In this document: positions 14,608-39,608 of the stretch, one piece after another | Position numbering within the stretch: the stretch's first letter is position 1 | Layout of the letters: the number at the start of each line of letters is the position of its first letter | DNA from: a virus | Length of the DNA: 64,000 nucleotides | Virus record (IMG/VR): IMGVR_UViG_3300028840_005153 | Location: 1 to 64,000 of that record | Reading direction: 5' to 3' (one strand) | Notes under the pieces: model-generated | What the model saw: only the letters and a program-made list of their open reading frames with translations | What the model was told of the DNA's origin: nothing | Databases searched by the model: none | Made by a program: the position numbers and the translations under genes

Positions 14608-14638
14608 AGGGAGTGGTTTCGGCCACTCCCTTTTTTTT
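14608..14638 (+). terminator. Rho-independent terminator
   Basis: AGGGAGTGGT-TTCG-GCCACTCCCT with T-tract. Confidence 0.88.
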
Positions 14639-14658: not shown

Positions 14659-15441
14659 ATGGCTAAAAAAGAAAAAGGTTTTTCGGTAGAAACTGAGTCT
14701 TTGAAAGATTTTCTTAGGAGAGTTTTCCTTAATGGTGCGGTTGATTCTTGCGTTTTAGAAATTGATGATGAAGGGTTTGCCGAAGTTTATGCAGTAGATG
14801 TTTCAAATGTTCTTTTCCTCTATGTTAGCGAAGACCTTGGTATCGAAGATGAAATGGAAATTGGCCTTGGCAATCTTGATCTTTTGAATAAATTTGTTTC
14901 TACAATAAAGGAAGATAAAGTTTCAGTTAGTATAGATAAGAATCGCCTTGTAATTGCGAGAGATAAATTTGGCCGTTTGGATTATCTTCTTACTTCTGCT
15001 GAGCTTGTGCCTACAGCATTGGAAGAGAAAGAAGACACGATAGAAAAGTTAATGGACGCTTGTACTATTGAGGTTATATTGAATGCTGATTTTGCTGCTA
15101 CACTCGCCAGTTATTACAGCATGGTGAAAGCGAAAGAAATAACTTTAAAATATATTGATGGGAATTTTTATGTTGTTGGAGGAACAGATACGGGTCACAA
15201 ATATGAAATACCAATTGATGGAGAAGTAAATGCCGTTGAGGGTGAAAACGAAGAGGATGATTTTACTGTTAGTGTTTATGGTGATTTCTTCCTGTCTATT
15301 CTTGGAGTTCTTGATTTTGATGAAGAGCCGAAACTTATGCTTGCACCAAATTCCCCGGCAGTAATTGTGCAAGGAGAAGATAATGAAAATGTATGGGGGA
15401 TAGCGCCAATTTCTATTGAAGGGGGAGGCGATGAAGATTAG
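14659..15441 (+). CDS. Sliding clamp (PCNA/gp45-like)
   Basis: Acidic 260-aa protein with AVDVSNV (cf. PCNA AMD.S.V) and C-terminal IAP; directly upstream of clamp loader. Confidence 0.65.
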   Translation: MAKKEKGFSVETESLKDFLRRVFLNGAVDSCVLEIDDEGFAEVYAVDVSNVLFLYVSEDLGIEDEMEIGLGNLDLLNKFVSTIKEDKVSVSIDKNRLVIARDKFGRLDYLLTSAELVPTALEEKEDTIEKLMDACTIEVILNADFAATLASYYSMVKAKEITLKYIDGNFYVVGGTDTGHKYEIPIDGEVNAVEGENEEDDFTVSVYGDFFLSILGVLDFDEEPKLMLAPNSPAVIVQGEDNENVWGIAPISIEGGGDED

Positions 15442-16357
15442 GAATTATATATGGTATGAAAAGTATCGGCCAACTTCATTAGCTAATCTGTCGCTTCCGG
15501 TAAAGGTAAAAAAGCAATTTAAAAAATATATCAAAGATAAACAAATTCCACACCTACTTTTCCATGGACCTCCTGGTTCTGGAAAGACAACTATTGCAAA
15601 TATCCTTATTAAAAATATTCCTTGCCGTTCATTGGTTTTAAATGCTTCTTCAGTGGATCGTGGCATTAGCACCATCAAGGGCAAGGTGAAAGAGTTTGCT
15701 TCCAGTCAGGCTTTGAAAGATGAAATAAAAATTGTTTTCTTTGATGAAGCCGATGGTTTAACACCTGATGCACAAATGGGTTTGAAGAATACGATAGAAA
15801 CTTATTCTGGAAATTGCCGTTTTATTTTTACTGCGAACAGATTGCATAAAGTTATTGATGCCATCCGTAGCCGTCCAATAATCTTTGAATTTAATCAGGT
15901 TGATAGAAAAGATTTACTCAAACAAATGACGCATATATTAGAGGAAGAAGATGTTGAATTTGAAGTAGAAGATATTGAAGAAATTATAGATCGTTTTTTT
16001 CCTGATGTAAGAACAATCGTAAATAATTTGCAAGCTGCTTCGTATTCTGGTAGTTTGGATATAGAAAATTTATCTTCCTTTGGTATTGAACCACATGAAA
16101 TAACTCAGCTTATTACCGAAGGTAATCTCAAAGAGATAAGGGTGAAAGTAAATGGCTTGAGTGATTTTTCTTTTATCTATCGTTATTTGTTTGATGAGTA
16201 TTTGCCTGAGCTTGATACGGAAAGTGGAATTGAATTTTCCTCTTCGATAGTTAAACATTTAAGCCAGGATACTTTTGTTGCAGATCGTACTTTGAATTTC
16301 CTTGGCTTTTGTGTAGATGTTATGGATATCCTGGAAGTTTCGGAGATAAAATTTTAA
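15431..16357 (+). CDS. Clamp loader ATPase subunit (RFC small / T4 gp44-like)
   Basis: WYEKYRP, PHLLFHGPPGSGKTT, LNAS..RGI, DEADGLT.DAQ, AIRSR. Confidence 0.93.
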   Translation: MKIRNYIWYEKYRPTSLANLSLPVKVKKQFKKYIKDKQIPHLLFHGPPGSGKTTIANILIKNIPCRSLVLNASSVDRGISTIKGKVKEFASSQALKDEIKIVFFDEADGLTPDAQMGLKNTIETYSGNCRFIFTANRLHKVIDAIRSRPIIFEFNQVDRKDLLKQMTHILEEEDVEFEVEDIEEIIDRFFPDVRTIVNNLQAASYSGSLDIENLSSFGIEPHEITQLITEGNLKEIRVKVNGLSDFSFIYRYLFDEYLPELDTESGIEFSSSIVKHLSQDTFVADRTLNFLGFCVDVMDILEVSEIKF

Positions 16358-16809
16358 TGGAATTTTTTGATTATATAAAAAACCTTTTCACCAAAGGAGA
16401 GGAGATTACTTCCACTTCAGAGTATCCAAATATGTGGATGGTAAATCGTTTTATTAGTGGAAGCCCTATCTCTTTTGAAATCGCACAGGAACTTAATCTT
16501 TATCTTTCACGCTTGCCTGATTGGGCTGCCGCGATGTTCTTATACCGTACCATACCGAAGACTGAGAGGGCTCCTTGGCTTGTTTATAGTAAAAAGCAGG
16601 TGTTACCATACCCTGAAGAATTAATAGCTAAAATAAGCGGATGCCTTAATTGTAGCACCATTTCGGCAATTCAATATATTTCTCTTTTGGAAAATAGCGG
16701 CGTTGATACGTATCAACTTTTTGGATTAAAGAGGAAACCAAATGGGAAGAAAACTTCGAAGAAGAAAAACACCTCAAAGAGTAAGCGTAAAAAGAAAAAA
16801 AATGAGTGA
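16357..16809 (+). CDS. Clamp loader small subunit (T4 gp62-like)
   Basis: FDYIK...Y..WMVNRFIS pattern; follows gp44-like gene. Confidence 0.6.
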   Translation: MEFFDYIKNLFTKGEEITSTSEYPNMWMVNRFISGSPISFEIAQELNLYLSRLPDWAAAMFLYRTIPKTERAPWLVYSKKQVLPYPEELIAKISGCLNCSTISAIQYISLLENSGVDTYQLFGLKRKPNGKKTSKKKNTSKSKRKKKKNE

Positions 16810-17185
16810 ATTTCTCGGCATGAAAAACCGAGAAGGAAATCTTATAAAAAAATATGAGAATATAATTGAAGGTAGGACTAACGAAGAGAGGAGAGAGATT
16901 GAACGTAAATTAATGAAGCCTGATGTTCTGCCGCCCTATGTTGGGCCGAAAGTAAATCGTGGCCCTTTAGCAAAAAGGACTGTTAAATTTTTCTTTCCTT
17001 CTTCAGATGATGTTGAAATACTTTCGCATCATGTTAAAATTAATAATTATGTTGAACTTAATTCTTATGATGTAGACTTAATCATGCGCTTTGTGGAATT
17101 GTTGGAAGAAGGAACTCTTCGTTATGATAAAGATTCTAAGAGAATTATTTTCGTCAGCGACCGTGGAGAAGAGTATCCGCTCTGA
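16742..17185 (+). CDS. hypothetical protein
   Basis: ORF, start 16742 (RKLRRRK) or 16802. Confidence 0.65.
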   Translation: MGRKLRRRKTPQRVSVKRKKMSEFLGMKNREGNLIKKYENIIEGRTNEERREIERKLMKPDVLPPYVGPKVNRGPLAKRTVKFFFPSSDDVEILSHHVKINNYVELNSYDVDLIMRFVELLEEGTLRYDKDSKRIIFVSDRGEEYPL

Positions 17186-17201
17186 TGGTGTCAATATTTA
17201 T

Positions 17202-17672
17202 ATGATTAAAAATAGATTTATAAAGCGAAGAGTTTTTTGTTTTTGGTGCGGGAATGCTAATGTAATTGATGGTACTGAAGCAAATTTTCTTCATAATTTT
17301 AACACATATTATCAGAAGATGAACAGCGGTCATGCGACAATTTGTAAGCATTGCGGGAAAATTATTTATACCGCTTTATATAAAAATAAAATCATAAGTG
17401 GAAGAAGTGTTAAACATTTAAGGAGAAGAAAAATGATCCTTGAATCGAAGCAAAGTCATGAAGTTATTGATGCACAAAAATTCGTAGAATTTATTGTTTT
17501 GAAAAAAGCTGAATTGGAATTGCCTTTAAAAAAGACTTTTACTGATACGGATACTTGTCCGTTGTGCGGAGGGCTTTTAGTTATTCATTTTGTGCCTATC
17601 AATTCTGAAGGAAATAAAGTAATTACGATGGGCGGATGTCAAAGTAAAGAATGTTTTTCCTGGAGGGAATAA
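17202..17672 (+). CDS. Zn-finger hypothetical protein
   Basis: CFWC, CKHC, CPLC motifs; start uncertain. Confidence 0.6.
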   Translation: MIKNRFIKRRVFCFWCGNANVIDGTEANFLHNFNTYYQKMNSGHATICKHCGKIIYTALYKNKIISGRSVKHLRRRKMILESKQSHEVIDAQKFVEFIVLKKAELELPLKKTFTDTDTCPLCGGLLVIHFVPINSEGNKVITMGGCQSKECFSWRE

Positions 17673-17674: not shown

Positions 17675-19099
17675 ATGAAAAAGAAATCAACAAGGGAAGA
17701 GATTATCCATGAATCGAAGAAGTTTGTGGAAAGCAATAAAGGCTTGAAACTCGATATGAATGCGAAAGTAAAACAGTATATTTCTCCTCGTATCAGTAGT
17801 GAATATATGGATTGCAGTATGCCAATGACTTTCGATAGTTATTCCCATTGTAGCTTAGGATGCCTTTATTGTTTCGCTTATTTTTTCAAAAGTAATAATA
17901 CTTCATTTAATGAAAATCTTCATGTTTCCGCAATGGAAAAAATGATTCCAGCAATTGAAGGTAAACCAAAATCATATAGAGAAAAGATTTTTCATAGACA
18001 TTTTTATTCGAAGAAATTTCTTCTTCATTGGGGCGGCATGGCTGATCCTTTTTGTAACTTTGAAAGATCAAACAGGAGAGCATTTAATTTCCTGGAAGCT
18101 CTTGGAGCAAATAATTATCCAACTCTTTTTTCTTTCAAGGGTGCAACAATTTTTCATCCAAGATATCGTAGACTTTTTGAAAAGTATTCGTCTCAACAAA
18201 ATTTTGCTTTTCAAGTTTCTATTGTTACTGGCGATGATAAACTTTCAAGGGAAGTAGAAATAGGTGTTCCTTCTCCCACAAGAAGATTAGAAGCAATCAA
18301 AATGTTAAGTGAGATGGGATATTATACTATACTTCGTCTTCGCCCTTTTATTATTGGCGTCACAGATCGTAGTCTTGATGAATTACTTGGAAAGGCTTTG
18401 GAAGCTGGAATCAAAGGCGTCAGTATGGAATTTTTTGCGGTAGATGTTAGATGTAGTTCGGGAATGAGGACTCGCTATAAATGGCTTGCACAAGTAATGG
18501 GAGTCAAAGATTTACTTTCATATTTCAAAGATTTATCTCCATCAGAACGTGGTGGATATATGCGATTAAATCGTTTAGTGAAAGAAATTTATGTCCGTAA
18601 AGTCTTTGAATTTTGCATGACACATGGATTAACTTTTGGTGTAAGCGATCCGGATTTCAAAGAATTAAATTCTTCGGGTAGTTGTTGCGGTATGCCTGAT
18701 GATTTTCCCGATAACCGTTTGCTTGAAAATTGGACACGTGGTCAATTAACATATGCTTTGAAAGAAGCAAGAAGAAAATATCATTTGGAAAATAAGGATC
18801 AATATCTTCGGTTTAATGATGTCTTTCATAAGGAAGACACTTACCTTGACGATATAGAATTAACAAATGATCACGTTGCTTGTGCTGAACTTACTGCCGC
18901 TGAAAGGAAGAGTTATACTTATCGAAGTTTAGCACAAAAGACTTGGAATAATTTGCGCAGTCCTGGGAATCCAAGAAATTACTTTCATGGTAAAATACTT
19001 CCTGTCGGAATAGATCAAGATGGAAATCTCGAATTTAAATATGTTGAACATGACTACGAAAAAAGATGGGCAAAAGACGGTCTTGATCTTTCGTATTGA
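17675..19099 (+). CDS. Radical SAM protein (spore-photoproduct-lyase-like clade)
   Basis: CSLGCLYC CxxxCxxC; GGMADPF, EIGVPSP.RRL, LRLRPFI, late CCG. Confidence 0.85.
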   Translation: MKKKSTREEIIHESKKFVESNKGLKLDMNAKVKQYISPRISSEYMDCSMPMTFDSYSHCSLGCLYCFAYFFKSNNTSFNENLHVSAMEKMIPAIEGKPKSYREKIFHRHFYSKKFLLHWGGMADPFCNFERSNRRAFNFLEALGANNYPTLFSFKGATIFHPRYRRLFEKYSSQQNFAFQVSIVTGDDKLSREVEIGVPSPTRRLEAIKMLSEMGYYTILRLRPFIIGVTDRSLDELLGKALEAGIKGVSMEFFAVDVRCSSGMRTRYKWLAQVMGVKDLLSYFKDLSPSERGGYMRLNRLVKEIYVRKVFEFCMTHGLTFGVSDPDFKELNSSGSCCGMPDDFPDNRLLENWTRGQLTYALKEARRKYHLENKDQYLRFNDVFHKEDTYLDDIELTNDHVACAELTAAERKSYTYRSLAQKTWNNLRSPGNPRNYFHGKILPVGIDQDGNLEFKYVEHDYEKRWAKDGLDLSY

Positions 19100-19110
19100 A
19101 AGTTAAAAAC

Positions 19111-19818
19111 ATGCGAAGAAGAAAAACGGTTTTAATAACTGGCCCTGCCGATATGAGGACTTGGCGAAAGGGTTGGATATGCCAATCAGGTCCAACTTGT
19201 TATGTTGGGAATCCACCGGAATATTGTATTCCGGAAAAGTATCGATGTTCTTTGAAAGAAGTATGGGCCATTATTCGTTGGGTAAAAGAGAGAATTGGAA
19301 AATTTAAAATCGAGAGGGGAAGAATAGTGCCTGAACAAAGAAGGATTCGCCGACGAAAGAAAAGCAAAACAAATTATCTTCCTAAGGATAATTGGAGTGC
19401 TATTTTTATTGAACCTTATGGGAGAAGATTTTATGATGGCTATATTGCTTTATTAGTTGGAGCAGAATATGTGGGTGATTATCCAAATGGGAATTACAAT
19501 ATCTTGGAAGAGCCGAGAATAAAACTTGATGATTTAAATGTTGTTTTGAATTATGTTAACAAGCAATTCCCTGATGGGTGGCGCGTCAATGGAAAAGAAG
19601 TCATTGCAGGTAAACCCGATCCTATTCGATTGCCTGAGAGGAAAATACCTGAGTGGGAAAGGAAAGCAAAAGAGAGAAAGAAGGAAGAGGAAAGTAAAAA
19701 TTATCAGAAACCTTTTTCAAAACCAAAAGGGATACGTGAAGCTTTAATAGTAAAGGAAGAAAAGCCACGTCAAATTAAAAGAAGAAAGTCATTCAGAAAA
19801 ATACGGAGAAGAAAATGA
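19111..19818 (+). CDS. hypothetical protein with several IRRR motifs
   Basis: ORF; ends RKIRRRK. Confidence 0.65.
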   Translation: MRRRKTVLITGPADMRTWRKGWICQSGPTCYVGNPPEYCIPEKYRCSLKEVWAIIRWVKERIGKFKIERGRIVPEQRRIRRRKKSKTNYLPKDNWSAIFIEPYGRRFYDGYIALLVGAEYVGDYPNGNYNILEEPRIKLDDLNVVLNYVNKQFPDGWRVNGKEVIAGKPDPIRLPERKIPEWERKAKERKKEEESKNYQKPFSKPKGIREALIVKEEKPRQIKRRKSFRKIRRRK

Positions 19819-21215
19819 AAATCGCAGTTACTATTTACCCTCTTGATGGTATGGGTGGCATTATTCCCAATGTGGAAAATCAATTGTGGGGATTGAAAGA
19901 ACTTGGACACGAAGTGGATTTTTATCTTCTCGGTTGGCAGAATAAATTTATGAAAGGAAAGTATTCAGATAATGAATTACTTTCGACAAAAAATAATGGA
20001 TGGCGTAAAGGCTGTTTATATCCTGTTCATGGAACTAAGGGTTGGAATTTTCCTCTGGAAAGAAAAATTCCATATAAGGGAAAAGAAAATATCAAAAGGG
20101 CAAAGCGAATACTTTCAAAGTATGATTTTATCATTTGGCAAATTCCTGTCCCCACAAGGCAAAAAGCAAACAGGGGAAATGTTGATTGGATAGAATTATA
20201 TAAGGCAAACGAAGTAAATGTTCTTTATTGCCATGACTGTCATCTTATTGAGAGATATCCTTATATCTACGAAATCAAAGATAATATTGTCGGTGTTGCG
20301 ACTACTCATACTGCCGGATATGGTGTTATGAAACTTGGAGGGATTCAAAAAGCATTGATATTTAGTAGCCATAATATAAATAGCACTCAAAGATCGTACT
20401 CATATTATAGGAGAGAAAAAGGATTTCTTTCGTTACAGAATTTTAAAAATACTAAAAATACTGATTTGCTTTTACGTTCAATACCATATATTTCAAAAGA
20501 TATTTCAAAACATATGGCGGGAGGTGGCCGGGAACAGTTATATATGACAAGCGAAGAAAAGTGCAAGCCTGAGTATTACTGCTCTCGAATTTATGATCCC
20601 GACCTTCCATTAAAAATACAGAAGAAGAAAATGAAAATATGGGATTATGCGATAGAAAATAATTTGATTTGGCATGGGTGGGTTTCACCTGCCGAAAGAG
20701 ATAAATTGCTGAGAAGTATTAGGACACTTGTTGATTTGAGTTGGGGAAAATATATCGAAGAGTATGGTGGAACTTTTAATCGTGTCTTTGTGGATGCTTG
20801 TATAAATGGAGCTATTCCAATCAGAGTAAAATATAATACCAATAAGGAAAGAAGTATAAATTCAATACTCAAAGAGAATGAACATTATATACCATTTCCT
20901 ATCCCACCTAATGCTACTCCAAAAGAAATTGCTGAAGTTATAAATGAGGCTAACAATCTTGAAAGAAAAAAGTGGAAAGAGATATTGAGCAGTAATTATA
21001 AACTATTACTTAATTTTGATAGGAAGCATTGTGCTCAACAATTTATTAATCTCGCAAAGAATAAACCGGCAGGATTTTTTAATGATGTAAAAATACTTTC
21101 ACAAACTGATCCGAAGATAATTATAAAATCTAATAAGATGATGAAAGAGTTTTTTGGTCAGGAAAAAGTAACGATAAAAAAGAATAGCGGTATGAGGAAA
21201 ATTTTGAGGAGCTGA
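19815..21215 (+). CDS. Putative GT-B glycosyltransferase (possibly DNA-modifying)
   Basis: N-terminal MKI.....GG....L..GLKELGHEV; K..DLLL, F.RV.VDA..NGAIPI C-terminal motif. Confidence 0.65.
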   Translation: MKIAVTIYPLDGMGGIIPNVENQLWGLKELGHEVDFYLLGWQNKFMKGKYSDNELLSTKNNGWRKGCLYPVHGTKGWNFPLERKIPYKGKENIKRAKRILSKYDFIIWQIPVPTRQKANRGNVDWIELYKANEVNVLYCHDCHLIERYPYIYEIKDNIVGVATTHTAGYGVMKLGGIQKALIFSSHNINSTQRSYSYYRREKGFLSLQNFKNTKNTDLLLRSIPYISKDISKHMAGGGREQLYMTSEEKCKPEYYCSRIYDPDLPLKIQKKKMKIWDYAIENNLIWHGWVSPAERDKLLRSIRTLVDLSWGKYIEEYGGTFNRVFVDACINGAIPIRVKYNTNKERSINSILKENEHYIPFPIPPNATPKEIAEVINEANNLERKKWKEILSSNYKLLLNFDRKHCAQQFINLAKNKPAGFFNDVKILSQTDPKIIIKSNKMMKEFFGQEKVTIKKNSGMRKILRS

Positions 21216-21216
21216 A

Positions 21217-22215
21217 ATGTCTTTGAATAGTTTATACTGTTTAAAAATTTGTCCAGTTGAAGGATGTAATCGTTTTTGTAAATTCTGTGGAGGTTATTCT
21301 ATATGGAAAACAAAGGAAGACAGGAAGTATAAATTTATGGATTTGGAGTTAGCAGAAAAAATGGCGTTTTCTTTTGGTAATGAATACGAAAGTAAAAGGA
21401 TAAGTATTGGGCAATTTGGCGAGCCTTTACTTCACCCAAATATCTTTGATATAATTCAAGCCTTTAGAAGTTATGGCCCTTCGCATATGCAAACGATTTT
21501 CAGTAATGGTTTATGTTTGATAGAAAATGGAGCAGATTTTATCTGTGAAATTTTTGCGAAAGGTATAGATTTTCTTATCATAGATACCTATACGAAGGGT
21601 GAAGAGATTCGTAAGGTTGTTAAAAAATCAAAGATAAAGATGATAGATTTTTACAAGGATAAACCAAAAAGTTTTCCAGGATTTATGTATCAAAAGCCTG
21701 GAAAGGAAAAAGTAATAGTTATCGTAGATGATCTTGGAAGTAAAGCTGGAATAGATAGGCGGAGAGGGATAGTCAATTCTGCTGGAAATTCTAATCCTAA
21801 AATTTTAAAAAAGTATGGGATATTTCCTATTGTTAATCCTATCGAAAGTAAATGCGTTCGGCCTTTTAGGGAGATGATTGTTTGCCATGATGGGGCTGTT
21901 CCTATTTGCTGTATTGATTGGAAGAGGGATTGCCTATTGGGAGTTTTTACAAATTCTATCAGTAAAATTTGGAATTCAAAATCTTTTCAAGCCGTAAGAT
22001 ATTTGCTGTATAATAAAAAGAGAATTTTTAATCCTTGTTACAAGTGTGATTTTAGCGGAGGTAACCGAAGAGGATTTTTAAAATGCCCTGAAGAAGTTGA
22101 TTATGGTTATCTTGAAAGGATGCAAAAGCGTTCAAAGTATAAAAGCAAATATTCAGTTGATCCTTTTTGGTATGATAAAGGGCTAAATGGAATTACTTCT
22201 TTTCTTAGGAGATGA
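21217..22215 (+). CDS. Radical SAM / SPASM (twitch) domain protein
   Basis: CNRFCKFC, GEPLLHP, SNG; C-terminal C.RPF...DG.V.ICC.D...IWNS...C.KC. Confidence 0.88.
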   Translation: MSLNSLYCLKICPVEGCNRFCKFCGGYSIWKTKEDRKYKFMDLELAEKMAFSFGNEYESKRISIGQFGEPLLHPNIFDIIQAFRSYGPSHMQTIFSNGLCLIENGADFICEIFAKGIDFLIIDTYTKGEEIRKVVKKSKIKMIDFYKDKPKSFPGFMYQKPGKEKVIVIVDDLGSKAGIDRRRGIVNSAGNSNPKILKKYGIFPIVNPIESKCVRPFREMIVCHDGAVPICCIDWKRDCLLGVFTNSISKIWNSKSFQAVRYLLYNKKRIFNPCYKCDFSGGNRRGFLKCPEEVDYGYLERMQKRSKYKSKYSVDPFWYDKGLNGITSFLRR

Positions 22216-25200
22216 CAATGGTAGATTTTTGCCACTTGCACAACCATGATGAATATTCGGCATTGGATGGCTTTGGAACTGCGAAGCAATACTGTGAACA
22301 AGCGGAAAAAATTGGTTATGAATATCTTGGATCGACAAACCATGCAAACATTGATGGGCTGATAAAATTTCAAAAGGAATGCAGGGAAAGAGATATTATT
22401 CCAGTCCTTGGTTGCGAAGGCTATATTGTTCCAGACCCATCGAAGAAAAATAAAGGTGATCGTCGTGGTCACATTTGTTTTTGGGTGAAGAATCAAATAG
22501 GATTTAAAAATCTTTGCAAACTTTTAACTCATGCAAATATGGAAGGCTTTTATTACAGGCCCCGAATGGGTTTCGAAGAAGTGTTGGATTTATGTGAAGG
22601 GCTTGTGATTTCTACCGCTTGCTCTCAGTCTTTTCTGAATCTTGAAGGTGGTAATGACTTCTTTTTAGATTTATATGAAAGAATTGAAGACGATCTTTAT
22701 TTGGAAGTAATGCCACATGATTACAAAGGACAGTATAGGATTAATAAAATTTGCAGAAGACTTTCGAAGAAATATGAAATACCTTTGGTGGCAACAAATG
22801 ATTGTCACTATGTAAAGAAAAGTCAATGGAAAGGGCATGAAGTATTGTTAGCAATACAAAGGAGAGCAAAATGGGATGATCCTAACCGTTGGAAATTTGG
22901 TATAACAGGATTACACTTACGAACACCCGAAGAAATGTTTGACGCCTTTATAGAACAGGGGATTTTTACCAAAAGAGAAATTCGCAAGGCAATGGAATTC
23001 AGTTTGGAAATAGCAGAAAAATGTGAAGATTATACAATTCCAAAACTCGATATAAAACTTCCAAGAATTTCAGAAGCGGAGGGTAGAATTGAAAGCCGAA
23101 TGCTGCGTCAAATTTGCGAAAGCAATTTTGAAAATATGTTTGGTGAAGACATGCAAAATTATAAAGATGAAAGATATTGGAAAAGATACCGCGAAGAATT
23201 TAGAATTATCAGACATAAAAAATTCGTAAGATATTTTTTAATTGTATGGGAACTTGTTAATTGGTGCAAGATAAACGATGTCATGGTAGGGCCTGGACGC
23301 GGTAGTGTTGGTGGATCTTTGATAGCATATCTTATGGGTATAACAACTGTCGATCCTTTAAAATTTGGTCTCCTGTTTAGCCGTTTTATTAGCGAAGATA
23401 GAATTGATTATCCTGATATAGATTTAGACTTCGAGGATTCAAAAAGACATTTGGTCAGAGAACACATTGAAGATTTATATGGGGAGAAAAAAGTTGCAGG
23501 AATTTCTACTTTCATGCGTATGAAAAGCCGCGCCATCATTAAGGATGTTGGAAGAGTATTTGATGTACCAGATAAGGAAGCAAATGAATTAACTAAGCTA
23601 ATTGATCCAAGCGAAGAAAATGCCATTCAAGATGCAATGCGTGAAACGGAAGAGGGAAGAGCATTTAAGAAAAAATATCCACTCGTAGTAAAATATGCTT
23701 TACAACTTGAAGGCCAAATAAAGGGCGGCGGACAACATGCTGCCGGAGTAATTGTAAGTGATGATGAAATAGAAAATGCGGGAAGAGGAAATATCGCAAT
23801 AAGAAATAACGTTCCGGTTATAAATTGGGAAATGAGTGATACGGAATATATAGGCTTAATGAAACTTGATATACTTGGCCTGAATACTCTTTCAGTTTTA
23901 AATGAAGCGCGTCGGCTAATAAAAGAAAATCATGAAAAGGATATTTTCTTTCCATCTATATCTTTGAAAGATAAGAGAATTTTTAAAGAGATAAGGAATG
24001 GAAATGTTGTTGGAGTTTTTCAATTAGGAACGTGGGCTATGACGCGCCTGATAGAGGAATTACAACCTACATGCTTCGAAGATATTGTTGCTTCAGTTGC
24101 TTTAGTACGTCCAGGCCCTAATGATTCAGGAATGACTGCTGATTATATTAAAAGAAAAAATGGTTCAAAGTGGCACCATTTACATCCTGCATACGAAGAG
24201 ATCACAAAAGAAACCTATGGAATAATTGTTTATCAGGAACAGGTAATGAGAGTAATTAGTGAAGTTGCTGGACTGCCAATAACAACTGCCGATAAGATTA
24301 GAAAAATTATTGGGAAGAAAAGGGATGTCAAAGAGTTTGCACCTTTCAAAAAGATGTTCATAGAAGGATGCTTGAATGAGAAAACTTTATCAAAGACTGA
24401 AGCGGAAAACTTCTGGGAAGCCTTGCAAAACCACGCTCGTTATTCTTTTAATAAAAGCCACTCTGTAGAATATGCTATGATTTCTTATTGGTGTATGTGG
24501 GTGAAGACTTATTATCCAACTGAATTTATTTGTGCTGTTTTAACTTATGGCGCGGATTCAAAAAAGGAAGAAATTGTAGAGGAAGCATATCGTCTTGGAT
24601 TAAATCTTATTTTGCCCAAAGTAAACAGTGAAACGCATCCTGTTAGATGGAAAGCAAAAGGTAGGAAATTATATATACCATTTGTTGAAGTAAAAGGAAT
24701 TGGTGAAAAAACCTGTTGGCAAATTAACACCGGAAAGCGTAATGGGATGCTTCAGTTCTTTAATAAAAAGCAGTCAGCAAATAATACTGAACAACATAAG
24801 GGTTCGCTTGGTAAAGTATTGAAAGCAATTGGAGCCTATGGAAACAAGCCTGAAGATGATATTTCAAAATACTTTGATTTTAGAACTGAAGCAAACCCTC
24901 GCAAACAATATCCAAACCTTTACCGTTTATTTCGTGGGAATTTGGCAATCGAAGATTTAGATGATGCGCTATTGGCAAGGAAAGTAAAGAAGAATTTCAT
25001 TTTTAAATCAGAAGAAAAAAGTCGTGGTTATGTTCAATGTTCAAAGTGTGGATTAAGAAAAAATGGGACACCTTCGCCGATGATTGCCGGTCGCTATAAT
25101 ATTATGATTGTTGAATTATATAAACCCGAAAGTAAAAAAAATGTGAAGAAGAATATCAAAATATTGGAAGATGAATTTTCTAAAGTAGATTTAAAAATTG

Positions 25201-25541
25201 AAGACTTTTACAGAACTCATTTAATTAAATGTCCAATTGAAAAGAGTGAAGAGAAATATGTTGAAAAATGTTCACATCTTTTACTTGAAGAGATAAGAGA
25301 TATTCGCCCGAAAGTTATATTATCTTTCGGTAAAATAACTATGAAATATTTTCTTGGAAGGGATGATAGCATAACGAAGTTAAGCGGTAAAACAGAATGG
25401 AGTGAAGACTTCAATGCTTGGATTGTGCCATGTGTAGCGCCTTCGGCAGTAATACAAAATAAAGAAAATAAAATTCATTTCAAAAATGGGATAAGAAATT
25501 TTGCGAGAACACTTCGCATAATTGGTTCGAAATATTTTTGA
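22212..25541 (+). CDS. dnaE: DNA polymerase III alpha subunit (family C) with C-terminal UDG-like domain
   Basis: PHP HLHNHDEYS, TNDCHY, GPGRGSVGGS, PDIDLD, HAAG, KLDILG, YQEQ, YSFNKSH; UDG family-4-like tail from about 25030. Confidence 0.95.
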   Translation: MTMVDFCHLHNHDEYSALDGFGTAKQYCEQAEKIGYEYLGSTNHANIDGLIKFQKECRERDIIPVLGCEGYIVPDPSKKNKGDRRGHICFWVKNQIGFKNLCKLLTHANMEGFYYRPRMGFEEVLDLCEGLVISTACSQSFLNLEGGNDFFLDLYERIEDDLYLEVMPHDYKGQYRINKICRRLSKKYEIPLVATNDCHYVKKSQWKGHEVLLAIQRRAKWDDPNRWKFGITGLHLRTPEEMFDAFIEQGIFTKREIRKAMEFSLEIAEKCEDYTIPKLDIKLPRISEAEGRIESRMLRQICESNFENMFGEDMQNYKDERYWKRYREEFRIIRHKKFVRYFLIVWELVNWCKINDVMVGPGRGSVGGSLIAYLMGITTVDPLKFGLLFSRFISEDRIDYPDIDLDFEDSKRHLVREHIEDLYGEKKVAGISTFMRMKSRAIIKDVGRVFDVPDKEANELTKLIDPSEENAIQDAMRETEEGRAFKKKYPLVVKYALQLEGQIKGGGQHAAGVIVSDDEIENAGRGNIAIRNNVPVINWEMSDTEYIGLMKLDILGLNTLSVLNEARRLIKENHEKDIFFPSISLKDKRIFKEIRNGNVVGVFQLGTWAMTRLIEELQPTCFEDIVASVALVRPGPNDSGMTADYIKRKNGSKWHHLHPAYEEITKETYGIIVYQEQVMRVISEVAGLPITTADKIRKIIGKKRDVKEFAPFKKMFIEGCLNEKTLSKTEAENFWEALQNHARYSFNKSHSVEYAMISYWCMWVKTYYPTEFICAVLTYGADSKKEEIVEEAYRLGLNLILPKVNSETHPVRWKAKGRKLYIPFVEVKGIGEKTCWQINTGKRNGMLQFFNKKQSANNTEQHKGSLGKVLKAIGAYGNKPEDDISKYFDFRTEANPRKQYPNLYRLFRGNLAIEDLDDALLARKVKKNFIFKSEEKSRGYVQCSKCGLRKNGTPSPMIAGRYNIMIVELYKPESKKNVKKNIKILEDEFSKVDLKIEDFYRTHLIKCPIEKSEEKYVEKCSHLLLEEIRDIRPKVILSFGKITMKYFLGRDDSITKLSGKTEWSEDFNAWIVPCVAPSAVIQNKENKIHFKNGIRNFARTLRIIGSKYF

Positions 25542-31018: not shown

Positions 31019-31663
31019 ATGTTTAATGATTTTCAGAAAATCCTTATTATCGCACCTCATGCTGATGATTGTGAAATCGGTTGTGGTGGAACAATTGCAA
31101 AACTCGTATCAGAGGGGAAAGACGTTTTATGTGGAGTTTTTTGTACTGTTCCAAAAGTGCTTCCTAATAGTGAATTAAATCAAACGTCCTGGTATCAAGA
31201 GCAAATAAAGGCTTCAGAAATTCTTGGAACTAAAGTTTACTTTTTTCAAAAAGCAATTTACGAAATGCGAATGTTGCCAAGTTATAGGCAAATAATTCTG
31301 GAAGACCTTGTTTTATTGAGAAAAAGATTTGAACCTGATGTTGTTATTATACCTTCAACGTTTGATCTTCATCAGGACCATCAGACAGTTTGCCATGAAA
31401 GTATTAGAGCATTTAAAAAATATAGTATCCTTGGCTATGAAATGGATTGGAATCAAATAGGTTTACATCAATCTCAATTGTATGTAGAATTATCAGAAGA
31501 AAATATTCAGAAGAAAAAGGAAGCAATAGCAATCTTTGAGTCACAGACTTGGAGAACATTTTGCGATCCAGAAATAGTGGAAGCAAATGCGCGATGCGCT
31601 GGATTACATATTGGCTCTAAATATGCAGAAAAATATGAGGTGATCAGATGGATAAGTCGATAG
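31019..31663 (+). CDS. PIG-L/LmbE-family de-N-acetylase
   Basis: IAPHADD.EIGCGGTI, D.HQDH, FESQ. Confidence 0.92.
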   Translation: MFNDFQKILIIAPHADDCEIGCGGTIAKLVSEGKDVLCGVFCTVPKVLPNSELNQTSWYQEQIKASEILGTKVYFFQKAIYEMRMLPSYRQIILEDLVLLRKRFEPDVVIIPSTFDLHQDHQTVCHESIRAFKKYSILGYEMDWNQIGLHQSQLYVELSEENIQKKKEAIAIFESQTWRTFCDPEIVEANARCAGLHIGSKYAEKYEVIRWISR

Positions 31664-32304
31664 CAATTTGGCAAAAGTATCCGAAAGAAATTATGGATCA
31701 AAGACTGGAATTTACGAAGCAAAGACTTCGCCCTTTGAAGGAAGGAATTGGAAGGAATTGTACTATTGGACCTGAAGTAAAGATAGGTAAAGGGTGTGAA
31801 ATTCGTAATAATGTTGTCATCCTTGGTCGAGTTACTATTGGTGATCATTGCTTAATAAGAACAGGAGCGGTAATTGGTGAAGATGGATTTTCTGTAGAAC
31901 GTGATGGCGAAAGAATTTTAAGGGTCGTGCATACAGGGGAAGTAGTAATTGGAAACCATGTTGATATTGGATGTTATACTGTTATCAATAGAGCTACCGT
32001 AAATCGAACAACCATAGGTGATTATACGAAGATAAGTCATCGGGTAACAATAGGACACAATAATCATATAGGAAAAAGAGTAATAATAAATTTAGGAACA
32101 TTACTTGCCGGAAGTGTTATTGTGAAAGATGATGTTTTTATTGGCTATCAAGCTACTGTTAAAGGTAAGTTGACAATCCATGAAGGCGCATTAGTCGGAA
32201 TGTGTTCATGGGTTACGAAAGATGTTCCACCTGAAGTAATTGTAGTCGGGCGTCCAGCTAAATTTTTAAGGAGAGTAGAAGACGGATACCATGAAAGGAG
32301 GTAG
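31648..32304 (+). CDS. Hexapeptide-repeat acyltransferase (LpxD-like)
   Basis: IG hexapeptide repeats, IGEDGF, H.G.V.IG..V.IG, I.H...IGHN. Confidence 0.85.
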   Translation: MDKSIAIWQKYPKEIMDQRLEFTKQRLRPLKEGIGRNCTIGPEVKIGKGCEIRNNVVILGRVTIGDHCLIRTGAVIGEDGFSVERDGERILRVVHTGEVVIGNHVDIGCYTVINRATVNRTTIGDYTKISHRVTIGHNNHIGKRVIINLGTLLAGSVIVKDDVFIGYQATVKGKLTIHEGALVGMCSWVTKDVPPEVIVVGRPAKFLRRVEDGYHERR

Positions 32305-32839: not shown

Positions 32840-33793
32840 ATGTTTAAAAGACTCACTATAAAATTCTTCCAATCCCATCGTAATTCTATTTTAAATTTTT
32901 CTCCTTTTTTCAATTGTATTTATGGAGAGAATTGTCATGGGAAAACTGCTATCTTTCGCGCAATCATTTGGCTTAAAGAGAATAAACCTATTGGATTAAA
33001 AAATTCATGGTTTTCAAAAGGCGAACCTACCGAAATTAGTATTCTAACTGGCGAAGATATTCTTATTGAATTTCATAAACAGAAGAAAACAACCTATAAT
33101 ATCACTGGTTATCCTACACCTTTTAATCCTGGTCGTGGTTCGCTGAAAGAAGTCGAAGAGATTTTAAATCTTGGAGAGATGAATATTCAGCGCCAATTAC
33201 AACCAACTTTCGTAATAACAGAAACGCCTGGAAAGATAGCTCAACGTTTAAATAAAGTTATCCAAGCAGAAGATGTTGATTCATGGGTTTCGGAAATTTC
33301 AAAGCAAATAAGGGACAATGATAAAAAGATAAAATTTTTAAAAAACGATAGGGCTGAATTGAGAGAACAATTACGTTCGATACCTGATTTGAAATTGGTG
33401 AAAGATAAGATAGAGAAAATCCATAGGTTGGAAGATTTACTTAACAAGAAGGAAGAAAAACTTGGCTCCCTAAAGAAAGCTCGCAAGGAATACAAAGGCA
33501 TTATAAAAGATATAGGCCAAATGCCTTTGGCAAAAATAAAACGCAAATATGAGGCAATGGTAAAGGATGCAGCTATACTTGAAAGATATGAAGAGTTATC
33601 AAATTGCCTTGCAGAATATAAAAAAATAGGAAATCAGTTAATTAGTCTTGAAGAAGAAAAATCTATGACAAGGAGGGATTATAATAAATTTTATCGAATG
33701 CTTGATGTCTGTCCTACTTGCGGAAGTAAGCTCGATGAAAAGAAAAGAAAACATTTAATCAAGGAGAGAGGAAATGGAAAGGACGAGAAGTAA
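32840..33793 (+). CDS. SbcC/Rad50-like ATPase, N-terminal half (Walker A to Zn hook)
   Basis: FQSH, GENCHGKTAIFRAI.W, Q-loop, coiled coil, CPTCG hook. Confidence 0.85.
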   Translation: MFKRLTIKFFQSHRNSILNFSPFFNCIYGENCHGKTAIFRAIIWLKENKPIGLKNSWFSKGEPTEISILTGEDILIEFHKQKKTTYNITGYPTPFNPGRGSLKEVEEILNLGEMNIQRQLQPTFVITETPGKIAQRLNKVIQAEDVDSWVSEISKQIRDNDKKIKFLKNDRAELREQLRSIPDLKLVKDKIEKIHRLEDLLNKKEEKLGSLKKARKEYKGIIKDIGQMPLAKIKRKYEAMVKDAAILERYEELSNCLAEYKKIGNQLISLEEEKSMTRRDYNKFYRMLDVCPTCGSKLDEKKRKHLIKERGNGKDEK

Positions 33794-36723: not shown

Positions 36724-36984
36724 ATGGTGGAGAAGATAATGAATGTTGCTGAAGAATTATGCAAAATGGGGAAAGATGGATGGCGATGGAAAGCAAACAA
36801 TGATCCTCATACGCCTGGATGTGAATTTTGTATTCTTGCTTATATTCCGCATATTCATAGGGTTTATGGGTACGGCTCAACACCGGAAGCGGCATTTACT
36901 ATGTTGAAAGAGCAAATAGGAAAAAGAGAAAAAGTAATTCAACAGGTCAAAGATGAAAACGAAGCACATGAAAGAGGAGGGTGA
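36724..36984 (+). CDS. hypothetical protein
   Basis: ORF with G.G.TPE.A motif. Confidence 0.55.
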   Translation: MVEKIMNVAEELCKMGKDGWRWKANNDPHTPGCEFCILAYIPHIHRVYGYGSTPEAAFTMLKEQIGKREKVIQQVKDENEAHERGG

Positions 36985-36985
36985 A

Positions 36986-37837: not shown

Positions 37838-37838
37838 A

Positions 37839-38282
37839 ATGTGGAATCCAAGTATTTGCGGCAAAGATGTTAAATATTATGAACCTTTAAATGTTTATGG
37901 AGGAGAAATTGGAAATAGATGTATGATTGGTGCTTTCGTAGAAATTGGACCCGAGGTAGTAATTGGAGATGATTGTAGGATTCAATCAGGTGCTTTTATT
38001 CCACAAGGTGTAGTAATTGGTGATTCCGTCTTCATTGGTCCAAATGTGGTTTTCACCAATGTTAAAAAGCCAAAAGCAAAAGTAAAACAATTCTTTCAGA
38101 AGACAATTGTTGGAAATGGAACTGTGATTGGTGCTAATGCTACGATATTGCCAGGAATTATTATTGGAAATTTTTCTACCATAGGCGCTGGAGCAATTGT
38201 TACAAAAAACGTTCCACCTCATTCTATAGTTATTTCACCTGAGGCGAAGATAATCAAAAGTGCTTTACAGAATAAATCATGA
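37839..38282 (+). CDS. Hexapeptide N-acetyltransferase, WbpD/WlbB-like
   Basis: [29 protein letters not shown]. Confidence 0.85.
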
Positions 38283-39420: not shown

Positions 39421-39608
39421 CAAAAAGTATTTTCTTATTTAAAAGCAGTAATTTACAGGTAAAGTGATAGTCAAATTTACTTTTACTTTTTTTGCATCTG
39501 GATGCTATCCCTTTATCAATTTAATTTAATAATGTAAGAAAAGATAAAAATCACCTGTATTTACAAATTGTTAATTGCTTCTTTTGTTTGGGCGGAAACG
39601 GAGCAGTA

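What the first reader, a model, noticed from the sequence alone, without database searches (positions are those of the whole stretch)
17675..22215. Radical SAM + GT-B + radical SAM/SPASM cluster coupled to the polymerase: candidate new DNA hypermodification pathway
Seen: two different radical SAM enzymes flank a divergent glycosyltransferase, tightly packed between the clamp loader and dnaE. No hydroxymethylase (ThyA-like), TET/JBP or queuosine-pathway genes are recognisable in this window. Established: phage base-modification genes cluster with polymerases. Inference: an oxygen-independent route in which a radical SAM enzyme activates a base, the GT glycosylates it and the second radical SAM enzyme tailors the sugar.
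Basis: inference. Interest (0 to 1): 0.72.

Follow-up and report, generated by a model that had tools for sequence, protein, structure and literature searches.

The report
Radical-SAM-led phage DNA glycosylation locus
An uncultured 76-kb phage from sediment and seawater samples keeps a photoproduct-lyase-like radical SAM enzyme next to a DNA-type sugar transferase and its DNA polymerase but has none of the known enzymes that prepare a base for glycosylation, so it may decorate its DNA by a new, oxygen-independent route.

Summary
Four translationally coupled genes sit between the clamp loader and a DnaE-UDG polymerase. They are an SPL-like radical SAM (rSAM1, 17675-19099), a basic orphan ORF, a divergent GT-B glycosyltransferase (fold confirmed, pLDDT 93.8) and a radical SAM/SPASM enzyme.

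It is not a fixed cassette. rSAM1 is a conserved core gene with relatives on 286 viral contigs, and it is better conserved than the polymerase. The genes behind it vary.

- In 27 of 51 dereplicated loci a TAGT or this GT-B family lies within four genes of rSAM1 (odds ratio 21, p 8e-12). Three more loci carry an amino-acid:DNA transferase there.
- The SPASM enzyme is always next to a glycosyltransferase where the contig allows a check.
- Elsewhere the same two glycosyltransferase families sit beside thymidylate-synthase-like hydroxymethylases and 5-hmdU DNA kinase.
- The rSAM1 phages lack ThyA-like genes (9 records scanned), 5-hmdU kinase (9), C5-methyltransferase (5) and TET/JBP (0 of 50).
- rSAM1 is specifically homologous to phage M6 gp53, the only radical SAM enzyme shown to modify DNA (hhalign 96.9%; controls 0.2% and 3.8%).

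The best reading is a DNA (thymidine) hypermodification pathway in which rSAM1 supplies or processes the handle, the GT adds sugar and the SPASM enzyme tailors it. All of this is inference; there is no chemistry. I found no publication describing it. This scan noted the same idea earlier on other genomes.

The parts
15416..16357 (+). Clamp loader large subunit (gp44/RFC-like AAA+). It marks the start of the conserved synteny block that leads to rSAM1.
   Evidence: PF00004 1.6e-14, PF13177, phrog_168 4.7e-73. Conserved upstream of rSAM1 in relatives.
16309..16809 (+). Clamp loader small subunit (gp62-like).
   Evidence: phrog_225 1.7e-14.
16742..17185 (+). Conserved ~130-aa protein of unknown function, found directly upstream of rSAM1 in 42 loci. 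It sits in the position of T4 regA; that is an analogy by position only.
   Evidence: phmmer finds 42 homologues, E down to 6e-23, always adjacent to rSAM1. No Pfam, PHROG or NCBIfam hit.
17091..17672 (+). Orphan Cys-rich ORF (193 aa). It may be zinc-finger-like. Whether it is a real gene is uncertain.
   Evidence: Only a weak YgiT zinc-finger hit, 1.5e-4. No homologue in related loci.
17675..19099 (+). rSAM1: an SPL/M6-gp53-like radical SAM enzyme and the conserved core of the locus. It carries the CxxxCxxC cluster motif (C67, C71, C74). Further invariant or near-invariant cysteines are C55, C135, C322, C345 and C346. It has a family-specific C-terminal domain.
   Evidence: 885 homologues, 55-81% identity. 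Alignments. Atlas clusters are mostly viral; hhalign to M6 gp53 96.9%, E 1.5e-10 over 241 columns; negative controls. RBS and start.
19096..19818 (+). ORF240: a very basic (pI 10.3) orphan ORF that fills the gap between rSAM1 and the GT. Function unknown.
   Evidence: No family hits. No homologue in related loci. Overlapping stop/start codons on both sides.
19815..21215 (+). Divergent GT-B (GT4-like) glycosyltransferase. It belongs to a viral family of about 205 clusters at 50% identity. The family is also found inside 5-HMUDK/ThyA-like thymidine-hypermodification clusters.
   Evidence: fold and family. (genomic contexts).
21217..22215 (+). rSAM2: a radical SAM enzyme with a full SPASM domain (7 Cys). 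It belongs to a virus-specific family that lies next to a glycosyltransferase wherever that can be assessed.
   Evidence: PF13186 34.6 bits, PF04055 34.7 bits. NCBIfam best hits are maturase and Twitch types. Atlas clusters are 97-100% viral. 12 of 15 distinct SPASM proteins have a GT within two genes. Of the other three, two lie at contig ends and L044 has its GT two genes away by tblastn.
22212..25541 (+). DnaE-type DNA polymerase III alpha with a C-terminal UDG-superfamily domain, translationally coupled to rSAM2.
   Evidence: PF07733 7e-77, PF17657, PF02811, PF03167 4e-10 at residues 986-1090. phrog_405.
31019..32304 (+). PIG-L family (GlcNAc-type) deacetylase at 31019-31663 and a hexapeptide acyltransferase at 31648-32304. 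These are candidate sugar-tailoring genes.
   Evidence: PF02585 9.5e-15, PF00132 3.2e-21.
33774..34793 (+). ThyX (flavin-dependent thymidylate synthase) with an insertion of about 97 aa. Its presence implies that the phage makes dTMP.
   Evidence: PF02511 7.6e-38 in two stretches.
36953..38282 (+). GFO/IDH/MocA sugar oxidoreductase at 36953-37837 and a second hexapeptide acyltransferase at 37839-38282. These are candidate nucleotide-sugar modification genes.
   Evidence: PF01408 2.3e-13, PF02894. PF00132 3.2e-23.
39588..40160 (+). dCMP deaminase, which feeds dUMP to ThyX.
   Evidence: PF00383 1e-20.

Best explanation
The locus is the phage's DNA base-hypermodification module, expressed together with the replisome.

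rSAM1 is a radical SAM enzyme of the spore-photoproduct-lyase / M6-gp53 branch. Both characterised members of that branch work on the C5-methylene of thymine in DNA. I propose that rSAM1 uses a 5'-deoxyadenosyl radical to activate the thymine methyl group in newly made phage DNA and turns it into a nucleophilic handle, most simply 5-hydroxymethyluracil with oxygen from water. The extra conserved cysteines may take up the electron. In this role rSAM1 stands in for the ThyA-like hydroxymethylase or the TET/JBP dioxygenase that other phages use.

The GT-B enzyme then transfers a sugar from a nucleotide-sugar onto that handle, giving a base-J-like product. The SPASM radical SAM enzyme travels with the glycosyltransferase and tailors the sugar or the glycosylated base. 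The phage's own deacetylase, acyltransferases and sugar oxidoreductase may shape the donor sugar.

What is shown: gene content, folds, homology, gene linkage, and absence of the known handle-making genes.

What is inferred: the substrate, the target base, the chemistry and the order of steps.

I put about 0.7 on involvement in DNA or nucleotide base hypermodification, and about 0.4 on rSAM1 being the handle-maker on thymine.
For: - rSAM1 family profile against M6 gp53 (the Nalpha-GlyT to Calpha-GlyT isomerase acting on DNA, PMC8989533): hhalign 96.9%, E 1.5e-10, 241 columns. The same profile against the SPASM and B12 radical SAMs gives 0.2% and 3.8%. NCBIfam places rSAM1 nearest the PA0069/Rv2578c 'DNA repair photolyase' group.
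- Linkage: 27 of 51 dereplicated rSAM1 loci have TAGT or the GT4-like GT within 4 genes, and 3 more have ADDT there. GT ORFs make up 29 of 425 near ORFs against 3 of 873 far ORFs (OR 21, p 7.6e-12). The pair recurs in different genome contexts and with either DnaE or PolA.
- TAGT (PF20691) and ADDT (PF18724) are DNA-specific families.
- Complementary distribution: in loci fetched with the GT as bait, 24 have ThyA-like (20 of them also 5-HMUDK), 2 have rSAM1, none has both and 2 have neither. The nearest GenBank TAGT relatives (PhiJL001, MW202897) sit beside dUMP/pyrimidine hydroxymethylases.
- Whole-record scans: no ThyA-like and no 5-HMUDK in 9 rSAM1 records, with a positive control in G007. 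No C5-MTase in 5 records. No Tet_JBP in 50 records.
- In the flanks fetched, rSAM1 is better conserved (55-62% identity) than DnaE (47-49%) and the clamp loader (39-53%). Inteins and introns have invaded it at the cluster motif and at the invariant CC.
- Nearly every polymerase beside rSAM1 that I scanned with Pfam carries a UDG domain (the window DnaE and four of five PolA ORFs; the exception, L007, has a separate UDG-exonuclease ORF just upstream), as in phages with T-modified DNA (PMC13697223).
- The phage encodes ThyX, dCMP deaminase and sugar-tailoring enzymes.
- Pyle et al. report that about 65% of contigs with phage DNA-GT-like genes lack 5mYOX or ThyS nearby (10.1101/2023.12.21.572611). 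That leaves room for another partner.
Against: - There is no chemical or expression data; everything rests on gene context.
- 21 of 51 dereplicated rSAM1 loci have no recognisable transferase within 4 genes (3 of them have one 5-7 genes away). A distant subgroup sits next to terminase and portal genes. rSAM1 may therefore have a function that does not need a GT.
- The window GT gives no Pfam hit on its own, and GT4-like enzymes elsewhere act on lipids, proteins and small molecules.
- The region between rSAM1 and the polymerase could simply be a hotspot for accessory genes.
- The Tet_JBP scan had no positive control. Divergent handle-makers could escape Pfam models.
- No radical SAM enzyme is known to hydroxylate thymine.
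Profile searches against PDB sequences did not reach SPL.
- rSAM1 fails the curated cut-offs of the PA0069 and Rv2578c models.
Confidence: 0.6

Rival explanations
1. The pathway is the same, but rSAM1 works before replication on a free nucleotide (dTMP or dUMP). It would take the exact slot of the ThyA-like dNMP hydroxymethylase. The modified nucleotide is then incorporated by the UDG-bearing polymerase and glycosylated on DNA.
For: - rSAM1 and ThyA-like hydroxymethylases, which act on mononucleotides, are mutually exclusive next to the same GT families.
- Some relatives have an AAA_18 kinase-like gene between rSAM1 and DnaE. It could be a dNMP kinase for a modified nucleotide.
- UDG-fused polymerases are typical of phages that replace dTTP before replication (PMC13697223).
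Against: - Both characterised relatives (SPL, M6 gp53) act on DNA polymers (PMC8989533).
- The phage keeps ThyX and dCMP deaminase, so it makes ordinary dTMP.
- I did not look for a dTTP-excluding enzyme (dTMPase or dUTPase).
Confidence: 0.15
2. rSAM1 is a gp53-like late tailoring enzyme, for example an isomerase or a C-C bond former. It rearranges a group that another enzyme installs. The handle would come from an unrecognised enzyme, from the SPASM or B12 radical SAM, or from the host.
For: - gp53, the closest characterised homologue, is an isomerase of an already installed adduct (PMC8989533).
- Some rSAM1 loci carry ADDT transferases, as M6 does.
Against: - The 5-HMUDK and ThyA-like genes that ADDT and gp53 need are absent from complete rSAM1 genomes, including the ADDT-bearing G005.
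- rSAM1 is the only constant member of the locus, whereas tailoring enzymes are normally the variable ones.
- Minimal rSAM1+TAGT pairs exist (L013, L057, L061, L086, L091).
Confidence: 0.1
3. rSAM1 is a DNA repair lyase, SPL-like, that reverses damage in densely packed phage DNA, or it is a replication accessory. The GT and the SPASM enzyme would then be unrelated cargo in a variable hotspot, for example modifying host glycans, virion proteins or a peptide.
For: - Sources annotate the family as 'DNA repair photolyase'.
- rSAM1 sits in the replisome block and occurs without transferases in 21 of 51 loci.
- SPASM enzymes classically mature peptides and proteins.
- GT4 enzymes mostly act on substrates other than DNA.
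Against: - The 21-fold local enrichment of DNA-type transferases, and the recurrence of the rSAM1-TAGT pair outside the replisome context, argue against coincidence.
- TAGT and ADDT are DNA-specific families.
- The samples that hold the phage are a sediment and a seawater metagenome; if the sediment is the habitat, UV photoproducts are not expected. They may be the source samples, so this is weak.
- No precursor peptide gene was noticed.
Confidence: 0.1

Closest known systems
Pseudomonas phage M6 gp53, radical SAM isomerase of thymidine hypermodification (Lee et al. 2021, PMC8989533)
   Same: It is an SPL-like radical SAM enzyme encoded in a phage DNA-hypermodification cluster, and it acts on the C5-methylene of a thymine derivative in DNA. 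Specific profile homology to rSAM1 over the radical SAM barrel: 96.9%, E 1.5e-10.
   Different: Only 20% identity. gp53 lacks the rSAM1 C-terminal domain and the conserved C55, C135, C322 and CC345-346. gp53 needs 5-hmdU made by a ThyA homologue, plus 5-HMUDK and an ADDT. None of these is in this genome. Here the partners are glycosyltransferases.
Spore photoproduct lyase (SplB) and the COG1533 PA0069/Rv2578c radical SAM group
   Same: CxxxCxxC with a Tyr between the second and third Cys. The best NCBIfam hits are to this group. SPL chemistry passes through a thymine allylic radical in DNA (established knowledge).
   Different: Scores are far below the curated cut-offs (65 against 360 bits). 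PDB profile searches did not reach SPL. The family is almost wholly viral.
Phage 5mYOX (TET/JBP) pathways with TAGT or GT-B DNA glycosyltransferases, and kinetoplastid base J (PMC8256090; 10.1101/2023.12.21.572611; PMC13229309)
   Same: The logic is post-replicative: make a hydroxymethyl handle on a 5-methylpyrimidine, then glycosylate it. Relatives of this phage carry TAGT genes. The variable tailoring genes cluster near replication genes.
   Different: No Tet_JBP domain in 50 rSAM1-bearing records and no C5-methyltransferase in the 5 records scanned for it. An oxygen-independent radical SAM enzyme stands in the oxygenase's place.
Pre-replicative ThyA-homologue pathways (SPO1, T4, PhiJL001, SP-15/YerA41-type, RB69 5hoC; PMC5889632, PMC13326640, PMC13697223)
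   Same: The same GT families lie next to the hydroxymethylase in those phages. The polymerases carry UDG domains. dCMP deaminase is present.
   Different: No ThyA-like gene here. A ThyX that makes normal dTMP is present instead.
BtrN-type Twitch/SPASM radical SAM dehydrogenases and anSME-type maturases
   Same: rSAM2 has the radical SAM core plus a 7-Cys SPASM domain. A carbohydrate-acting precedent (BtrN) exists (established knowledge).
   Different: All NCBIfam scores are far below the cut-offs. The family is virus-specific and GT-linked. The substrate is unknown.

Membership tests
Radical SAM superfamily (rSAM1) | CxxxCxxC motif binding the [4Fe-4S] cluster, and a match to PF04055 | tested here: met
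   CSLGCLYC, invariant in 31-32 sequences. The window protein scores 25.5 bits, below the 29.5 cut-off, at E 1.7e-5. 31 of 32 family members hit PF04055 at E<=0.01.
PA0069 / Rv2578c radical SAM families (COG1533 'DNA repair photolyase') | Score above NCBIfam's curated cut-off (360 and 430 bits) | tested here: not met
   65.5 and 51.1 bits. Related, but not a member of these equivalogs.
Spore photoproduct lyase proper | Match to an SPL model or structure, with the catalytic Cys and Tyr radical-relay residues | tested here: inconclusive
   TIGR00620 is not in the library. Profiles A3 and A4 did not reach SPL chains in the PDB.
M6 gp53-type DNA-modifying radical SAM | Specific homology beyond the generic radical SAM core | tested here: met
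   hhalign 96.9%, E 1.5e-10 over 241 columns. Controls against the SPASM and B12 radical SAMs gave 0.2% and 3.8%.
M6 gp53-type DNA-modifying radical SAM | Genomic partners 5-HMUDK, ADDT and a ThyA-like hydroxymethylase | tested here: not met
   No 5-HMUDK or ThyA-like hit in the genome, with a positive control in G007. My local ADDT HMM found no hit in the 64-kb window; the last 12 kb of the record were not scanned.
GT-B glycosyltransferase (GT4-like) | Two Rossmann-like domains and a GT4-type donor-binding C-terminal domain | tested here: met
   AF2 pLDDT 93.8, pTM 0.90. Foldseek hits to HepE, PimA and BshA at E 1e-13, prob 1.00. Profile against GlgA 3.8e-8. Invariant K214 and G236/G238.
Pfam Glycos_transf_1 (PF00534) | Pfam match for the window protein itself | tested here: not met
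   No hit for the window protein. 20 of 57 family members do hit.
TAGT (TET-associated glycosyltransferase, PF20691) | A Pfam match in this genome | tested here: not met
   No hit in G000. Hits above the cut-off occur in relatives G001, G004 and G010-G014.
Radical SAM / SPASM (rSAM2) | Radical SAM core plus a SPASM domain with the 7-Cys motif | tested here: met
   PF04055 34.7 bits (cut-off 29.5) and PF13186 34.6 bits (cut-off 21.5). CNRFCKFC and seven C-terminal cysteines are visible in the translation.
TET/JBP (5mYOX)-dependent hypermodification cluster | A Tet_JBP dioxygenase, with or without a C5-MTase | tested here: not met
   No PF12851 hit in 50 rSAM1 records and no PF00145 hit in 5. 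The Tet_JBP search had no positive control.
Phage DNA hypermodification pathway (functional class) | A non-canonical nucleoside in virion DNA | not testable with these tools
   Only Logan contigs of two metagenome runs hold the sequence. There are no raw long reads and no isolate.

The most novel reading that the evidence does not exclude
rSAM1 founds a third, oxygen-independent way of functionalising a base in DNA. It would be a radical SAM enzyme that activates the C-H bond of the thymine methyl group in the DNA polymer, or in a nucleotide, to create the handle for glycosyl, amino-acid and other hypermodifications. It would replace both ThyA-type hydroxymethylases and TET/JBP dioxygenases in a large clade of uncultured phages (relatives on 286 viral contigs; the window phage was found in sediment and seawater samples). 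The SPASM and B12 radical SAM enzymes would serve as a new toolkit for tailoring DNA-borne sugars.
Probability: 0.35. Interest if true: 0.9.

Novelty: new variant of a known kind. Interest (0 to 1): 0.78.

Why it matters
Every phage pyrimidine hypermodification pathway in the papers read here starts from a handle made by a thymidylate-synthase homologue or by an oxygen-dependent TET/JBP dioxygenase. A radical SAM entry enzyme would be new enzymology: anaerobic C-H functionalisation of a DNA base.

It would also offer a partner for some of the roughly 65% of phage DNA-GT-like gene clusters that lack a known handle-making enzyme nearby. It would explain how phages in anoxic habitats hypermodify their DNA. 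It could also yield new tools for DNA labelling and modified-base chemistry.

The family is large and highly conserved, and selfish inteins and introns have invaded it. That suggests it is important to these phages. The hypothesis is directly testable with existing E. coli pathway-reassembly platforms.

Tried and rejected
- Nucleotide and protein searches of the GenBank phage collection with the locus and with the GT found nothing. rSAM1 gave only two weak hits.
- The single-sequence AF2 model of the GT failed (pLDDT 33.7). It was redone with an alignment.
- Profiles of rSAM1 against PDB sequences did not reach SPL. TIGR00620 is not in the library.
- The word-based search for rSAM2 homologues found only 3 proteins.
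- The conserved C-terminal x-K-x-M-x-x-F-F-G motif of the GT family looks like a PIP box. AF2 models it confidently (pLDDT 92-97 over residues 431-450) as a helix (433-445) with the FF just after it, and I take this to be the canonical GT-B crossover helix from general knowledge of the fold. I do not count it as clamp-binding evidence.
- ThyX as the handle-maker is rejected as a general answer. It is absent from the near-complete relatives G001-G003, two of which (G001, G003) still carry a GT.
- The Iyer et al. 2013 paper that defined TAGT could not be read.
- Sequencing runs: no RNA holder is listed. The two DNA holders are contigs only and may be the source samples.
- Queuosine and 7-deazaguanine genes were not searched.

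Full report
**What is there**

The window belongs to a 76-kb IMG/VR virus record that is about 95% complete. It is a tailed phage with a T4-style replication module and Caudoviricetes terminase, portal and prohead protease genes.

From a strong terminator-like site at 14605-14634 to the end of the polymerase gene there is only one weak terminator-like match on the + strand, at 22456, and the genes abut or overlap. The order is:

- clamp loader large and small subunits (15416-16357, 16309-16809);
- a conserved ~130-aa protein (16742-17185);
- an orphan Cys-rich ORF (17091-17672);
- rSAM1 (ORF from 17651; the likely start is the ATG at 17675, behind GGAGG);
- ORF240 (19096-19818);
- the 466-aa protein (19815-21215);
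- rSAM2 (21217-22215);
- a DnaE polymerase with a C-terminal UDG-superfamily domain (22212-25541).

**The three enzymes**

rSAM1 has the motif CSLGCLYC. It matches PF04055 weakly and matches NCBIfam PA0069/Rv2578c best (4e-18 and 1e-13, far below the cut-offs). That is the COG1533 'DNA repair photolyase' group, and JGI uses that name for many homologues.

The 466-aa protein has no hit in Pfam, PHROGs or NCBIfam. An exhaustive search found 205 cluster representatives. With a 57-sequence alignment, AF2 gave pLDDT 93.8. Foldseek places the model among GT4-type GT-B enzymes (HepE, PimA, BshA; E about 1e-13), with T4 alpha-glucosyltransferase at rank 31. In the viral library, a glycosyltransferase of phage SP-15 is rank 2 and a cyanophage 'DNA alpha-GT' is rank 6. 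SP-15 has glycosylated thymidine derivatives in its DNA. The family profile hits GlgA at 3.8e-8, and 20 of 57 members hit PF00534.

rSAM2 is a radical SAM enzyme with a full SPASM domain. It belongs to virus-only clusters.

**The locus is not a fixed cassette**

rSAM1 has 885 homologues in the big protein collection and relatives on 286 viral contigs. In related loci it is 55-62% identical. DnaE is 47-49% and the clamp loader 39-53%. It follows the clamp loader and the 16742 homologue.

The stretch between rSAM1 and the polymerase varies. Pfam annotation of that stretch in relatives gave:

- TAGT (TET-associated glycosyltransferase, PF20691), once or twice;
- more SPASM radical SAMs;
- B12-binding radical SAMs;
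- the GT4-like family, detected by the family HMM in L014-L016, L063 and L074 as well;
- ADDT amino-acid:DNA transferases (PF18724), with an FkbM methyltransferase or a myo-inositol-1-phosphate synthase;
- AAA_18 kinase-like proteins;
- a PIG-L-like protein;
- an intein-bearing radical SAM.

The polymerase next door is either DnaE or PolA. The window DnaE and four of the five PolA ORFs I scanned with Pfam carry a UDG domain. The exception, the 473-aa PolA ORF of L007, has a separate UDG-exonuclease ORF just upstream.

**Linkage statistics**

I dereplicated rSAM1 at 90% identity. That left 51 loci with enough flank.

- 27 have TAGT or the GT4-like GT within four genes. Three more have ADDT there.
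- GT ORFs make up 29 of 425 ORFs near rSAM1, against 3 of 873 farther away in the same loci (odds ratio 21, Fisher p 7.6e-12).
- The rSAM1-TAGT pair also occurs in distant relatives (33-36% identity) outside the replisome context. All five such TAGTs pass Pfam's cut-off.
- Of 15 distinct SPASM proteins, 12 have a GT within two genes. Two of the other three lie at contig ends. The third (L044) has its GT two genes away by tblastn.

**Where the same transferases live otherwise**

In loci fetched with the GT4-like protein as bait, 24 distinct loci have a ThyA-like gene, and 20 of these also have 5-hmdU DNA kinase. Two have rSAM1, two have neither and none has both.

In L020 the order is 5-HMUDK (PF18723, 6e-51), FkbM methyltransferase, a small ORF, the GT, a ThyA-like gene, a PD-(D/E)XK nuclease, an HD phosphohydrolase and PolA. 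That is a classical thymidine-hypermodification neighbourhood (PMC5889632, PMC8989533).

The nearest GenBank relatives of the TAGTs (PhiJL001 and MW202897) lie beside genes annotated as SPO1-like dUMP hydroxymethylase or 'pyrimidine hmase'.

Whole-record scans of rSAM1-bearing phages found none of the following:

- a ThyA-like gene or 5-HMUDK, in 9 records, four of them estimated 100% complete and three of those four with terminal repeats, with a positive control in G007;
- a C5-methyltransferase, in 5 records;
- Tet_JBP, in 50 records, without a positive control.

ThyX is present in this phage and in G004, but it is absent from the near-complete G001-G003. It therefore cannot be the general handle-maker.

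**Homology to a DNA-modifying radical SAM**

I located phage M6 gp53 by the motif given in PMC8989533. It is the only radical SAM enzyme shown to install a DNA modification. It isomerises Nalpha-glycinylthymidine on DNA through a thymidyl radical and was itself modelled on SPL.

The rSAM1 family profile aligns to gp53 with 96.9% probability (E 1.5e-10, 241 columns). The same profile gives 0.2% against rSAM2 and 3.8% against the B12 radical SAM. The relation is therefore specific.

rSAM1 also has a family-specific C-terminal domain and invariant or near-invariant cysteines: C55, C135 (within ADPFC), C322 and the pair C345-C346.

In relatives the gene is split at the CxxxCxxC motif by inserted ORFs (L063, L064, L084). 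In L081 it carries a LAGLIDADG-type intein right after the CC pair. Selfish elements typically target essential, conserved sites (established knowledge).

**Interpretation**

The simplest model that fits all of this is a DNA hypermodification pathway in which rSAM1 replaces the hydroxymethylase or dioxygenase.

- rSAM1 activates the thymine methyl group and gives a hydroxymethyl-type handle. The extra cysteines may bind an auxiliary cluster that removes the second electron, as in radical SAM dehydrogenases (inference).
- The GT then glycosylates the handle, giving a base-J-like product.
- The SPASM enzyme is tied to the GT and tailors the sugar or the adduct. BtrN is a carbohydrate-acting precedent (established knowledge).

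Thymine is favoured as the target for three reasons. No C5-methyltransferase was found in the five records scanned, this genome among them, the phage makes dTMP (dCMP deaminase plus ThyX), and both characterised relatives handle a thymine C5-methylene radical.

The phage also encodes a PIG-L deacetylase, two hexapeptide acyltransferases and a GFO/IDH/MocA oxidoreductase. These could shape an unusual donor sugar.

Rivals:

- rSAM1 acts on a free nucleotide before replication.
- rSAM1 is a gp53-like late tailoring enzyme.
- rSAM1 is a repair enzyme and the linkage is a hotspot effect.

The main weakness is that 21 of 51 dereplicated rSAM1 loci show no transferase within four genes (three of these have one five to seven genes away), and nothing has been tested chemically.

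**Novelty**

Full-text searches found no paper that links a radical SAM enzyme with TAGT or with glycosylating DNA pathways.

Pyle et al. report that about 65% of phage contigs with DNA-GT-like genes have no 5mYOX or ThyS nearby. O'Toole et al. 2026 establish phage T-dioxygenases as the known post-replicative route.

Earlier notes from this scan reached the same idea on other genomes: e1-6050521, e1-6003496 and e1-6005235. They are AI notes, not independent evidence. I had reached this reading before I saw them. I tested the underlying claims on L003/L004 and on G005.

**Verdict**

- This is a new variant of a known kind of system (phage DNA hypermodification) with a potentially new entry enzyme.
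- Interest is high, pending chemistry.

Noticed in passing
L063:6895-9347, L064:8779-11227, L084:8490-11263: The rSAM1 genes of these relatives are split at the CxxxCxxC motif (residues ~67-76). An ORF lies between the halves in L064 (91 aa) and L084 (306 aa); in L063 the first ORF carries ~290 extra residues after the break. The arrangement looks like an intron or homing-endonuclease insertion at the most conserved site.
   Followed up: partly
L081:9986-12403: This rSAM1 is 805 aa long. An insert of about 360 aa with a LAGLIDADG-like motif (GWFLGDGCY) sits directly after the invariant CC pair. It is probably an intein and marks that site as functionally critical.
   Followed up: partly
L073:11281-13083: A second radical SAM gene directly after rSAM1 contains an intein splicing domain (PF14890, 7e-13).
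   Followed up: no
L020:6097-13461 (and L019, L021-L029): The GT4-like family sits inside clusters with 5-hmdU DNA kinase, an FkbM methyltransferase, a ThyA-like gene, a PD-(D/E)XK nuclease, an HD phosphohydrolase and PolA. No ADDT was detected there. How a GT-B cooperates with the kinase in these clusters is unexplained.
   Followed up: partly
L018:8001-11484: A GT4-like plus SPASM pair in an unrelated 115-kb phage contig lies directly next to a TnpB/Cas12f-like transposon nuclease gene.
   Followed up: no
L062:11983-14892 and L070:11327-13234: In L062, rSAM1 is followed by myo-inositol-1-phosphate synthase and an ADDT. In L070 it is followed by an FkbM methyltransferase and an ADDT. L070's complete 109-kb genome (G005) has no HMUDK_hel, ThyA-like or Tet_JBP hit.
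   Followed up: partly
window 33774-34793: ThyX is 339 aa long. Its Pfam match is broken into two stretches by an insertion of about 97 aa.
   Followed up: no
window 22212-25541; L007:14435-15670; L013:14063-16804; L014:3876-6251: Nearly every polymerase beside rSAM1 that was scanned, whether DnaE or PolA, carries a UDG-superfamily domain: C-terminal in this window's DnaE, N-terminal in the PolA ORFs checked. The 473-aa PolA ORF of L007 lacks one, but the separate L007 ORF listed here supplies it. UDG-PolA fusions were recently tied to T-modified genomes (PMC13697223).
   Followed up: partly
window 21100-21160 (GT residues 439-447) and family alignment A1: A PIP-box-like motif x-K-x-[ML]-x-x-F-F-G is conserved near the C-terminus of many GT family members. 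AF2 models it confidently (pLDDT 92-97) as a helix with the FF just after it. I take this to be the GT-B crossover helix, from general knowledge of the fold, so a clamp-docking role is doubtful.
   Followed up: partly
window 19096-19818 and 17091-17672: Two orphan basic ORFs flank rSAM1 (pI 10.3 and 9.5). ORF240 ends in an RRRK-type basic tail. Neither has a homologue in 110 related loci.
   Followed up: partly
L002, L009:7821-8471, L010:4594-5295, L049: In relatives without a GT, an AAA_18 P-loop kinase-like gene sits between rSAM1 and DnaE. It may be a nucleotide kinase or a kinase acting on the modified base.
   Followed up: no
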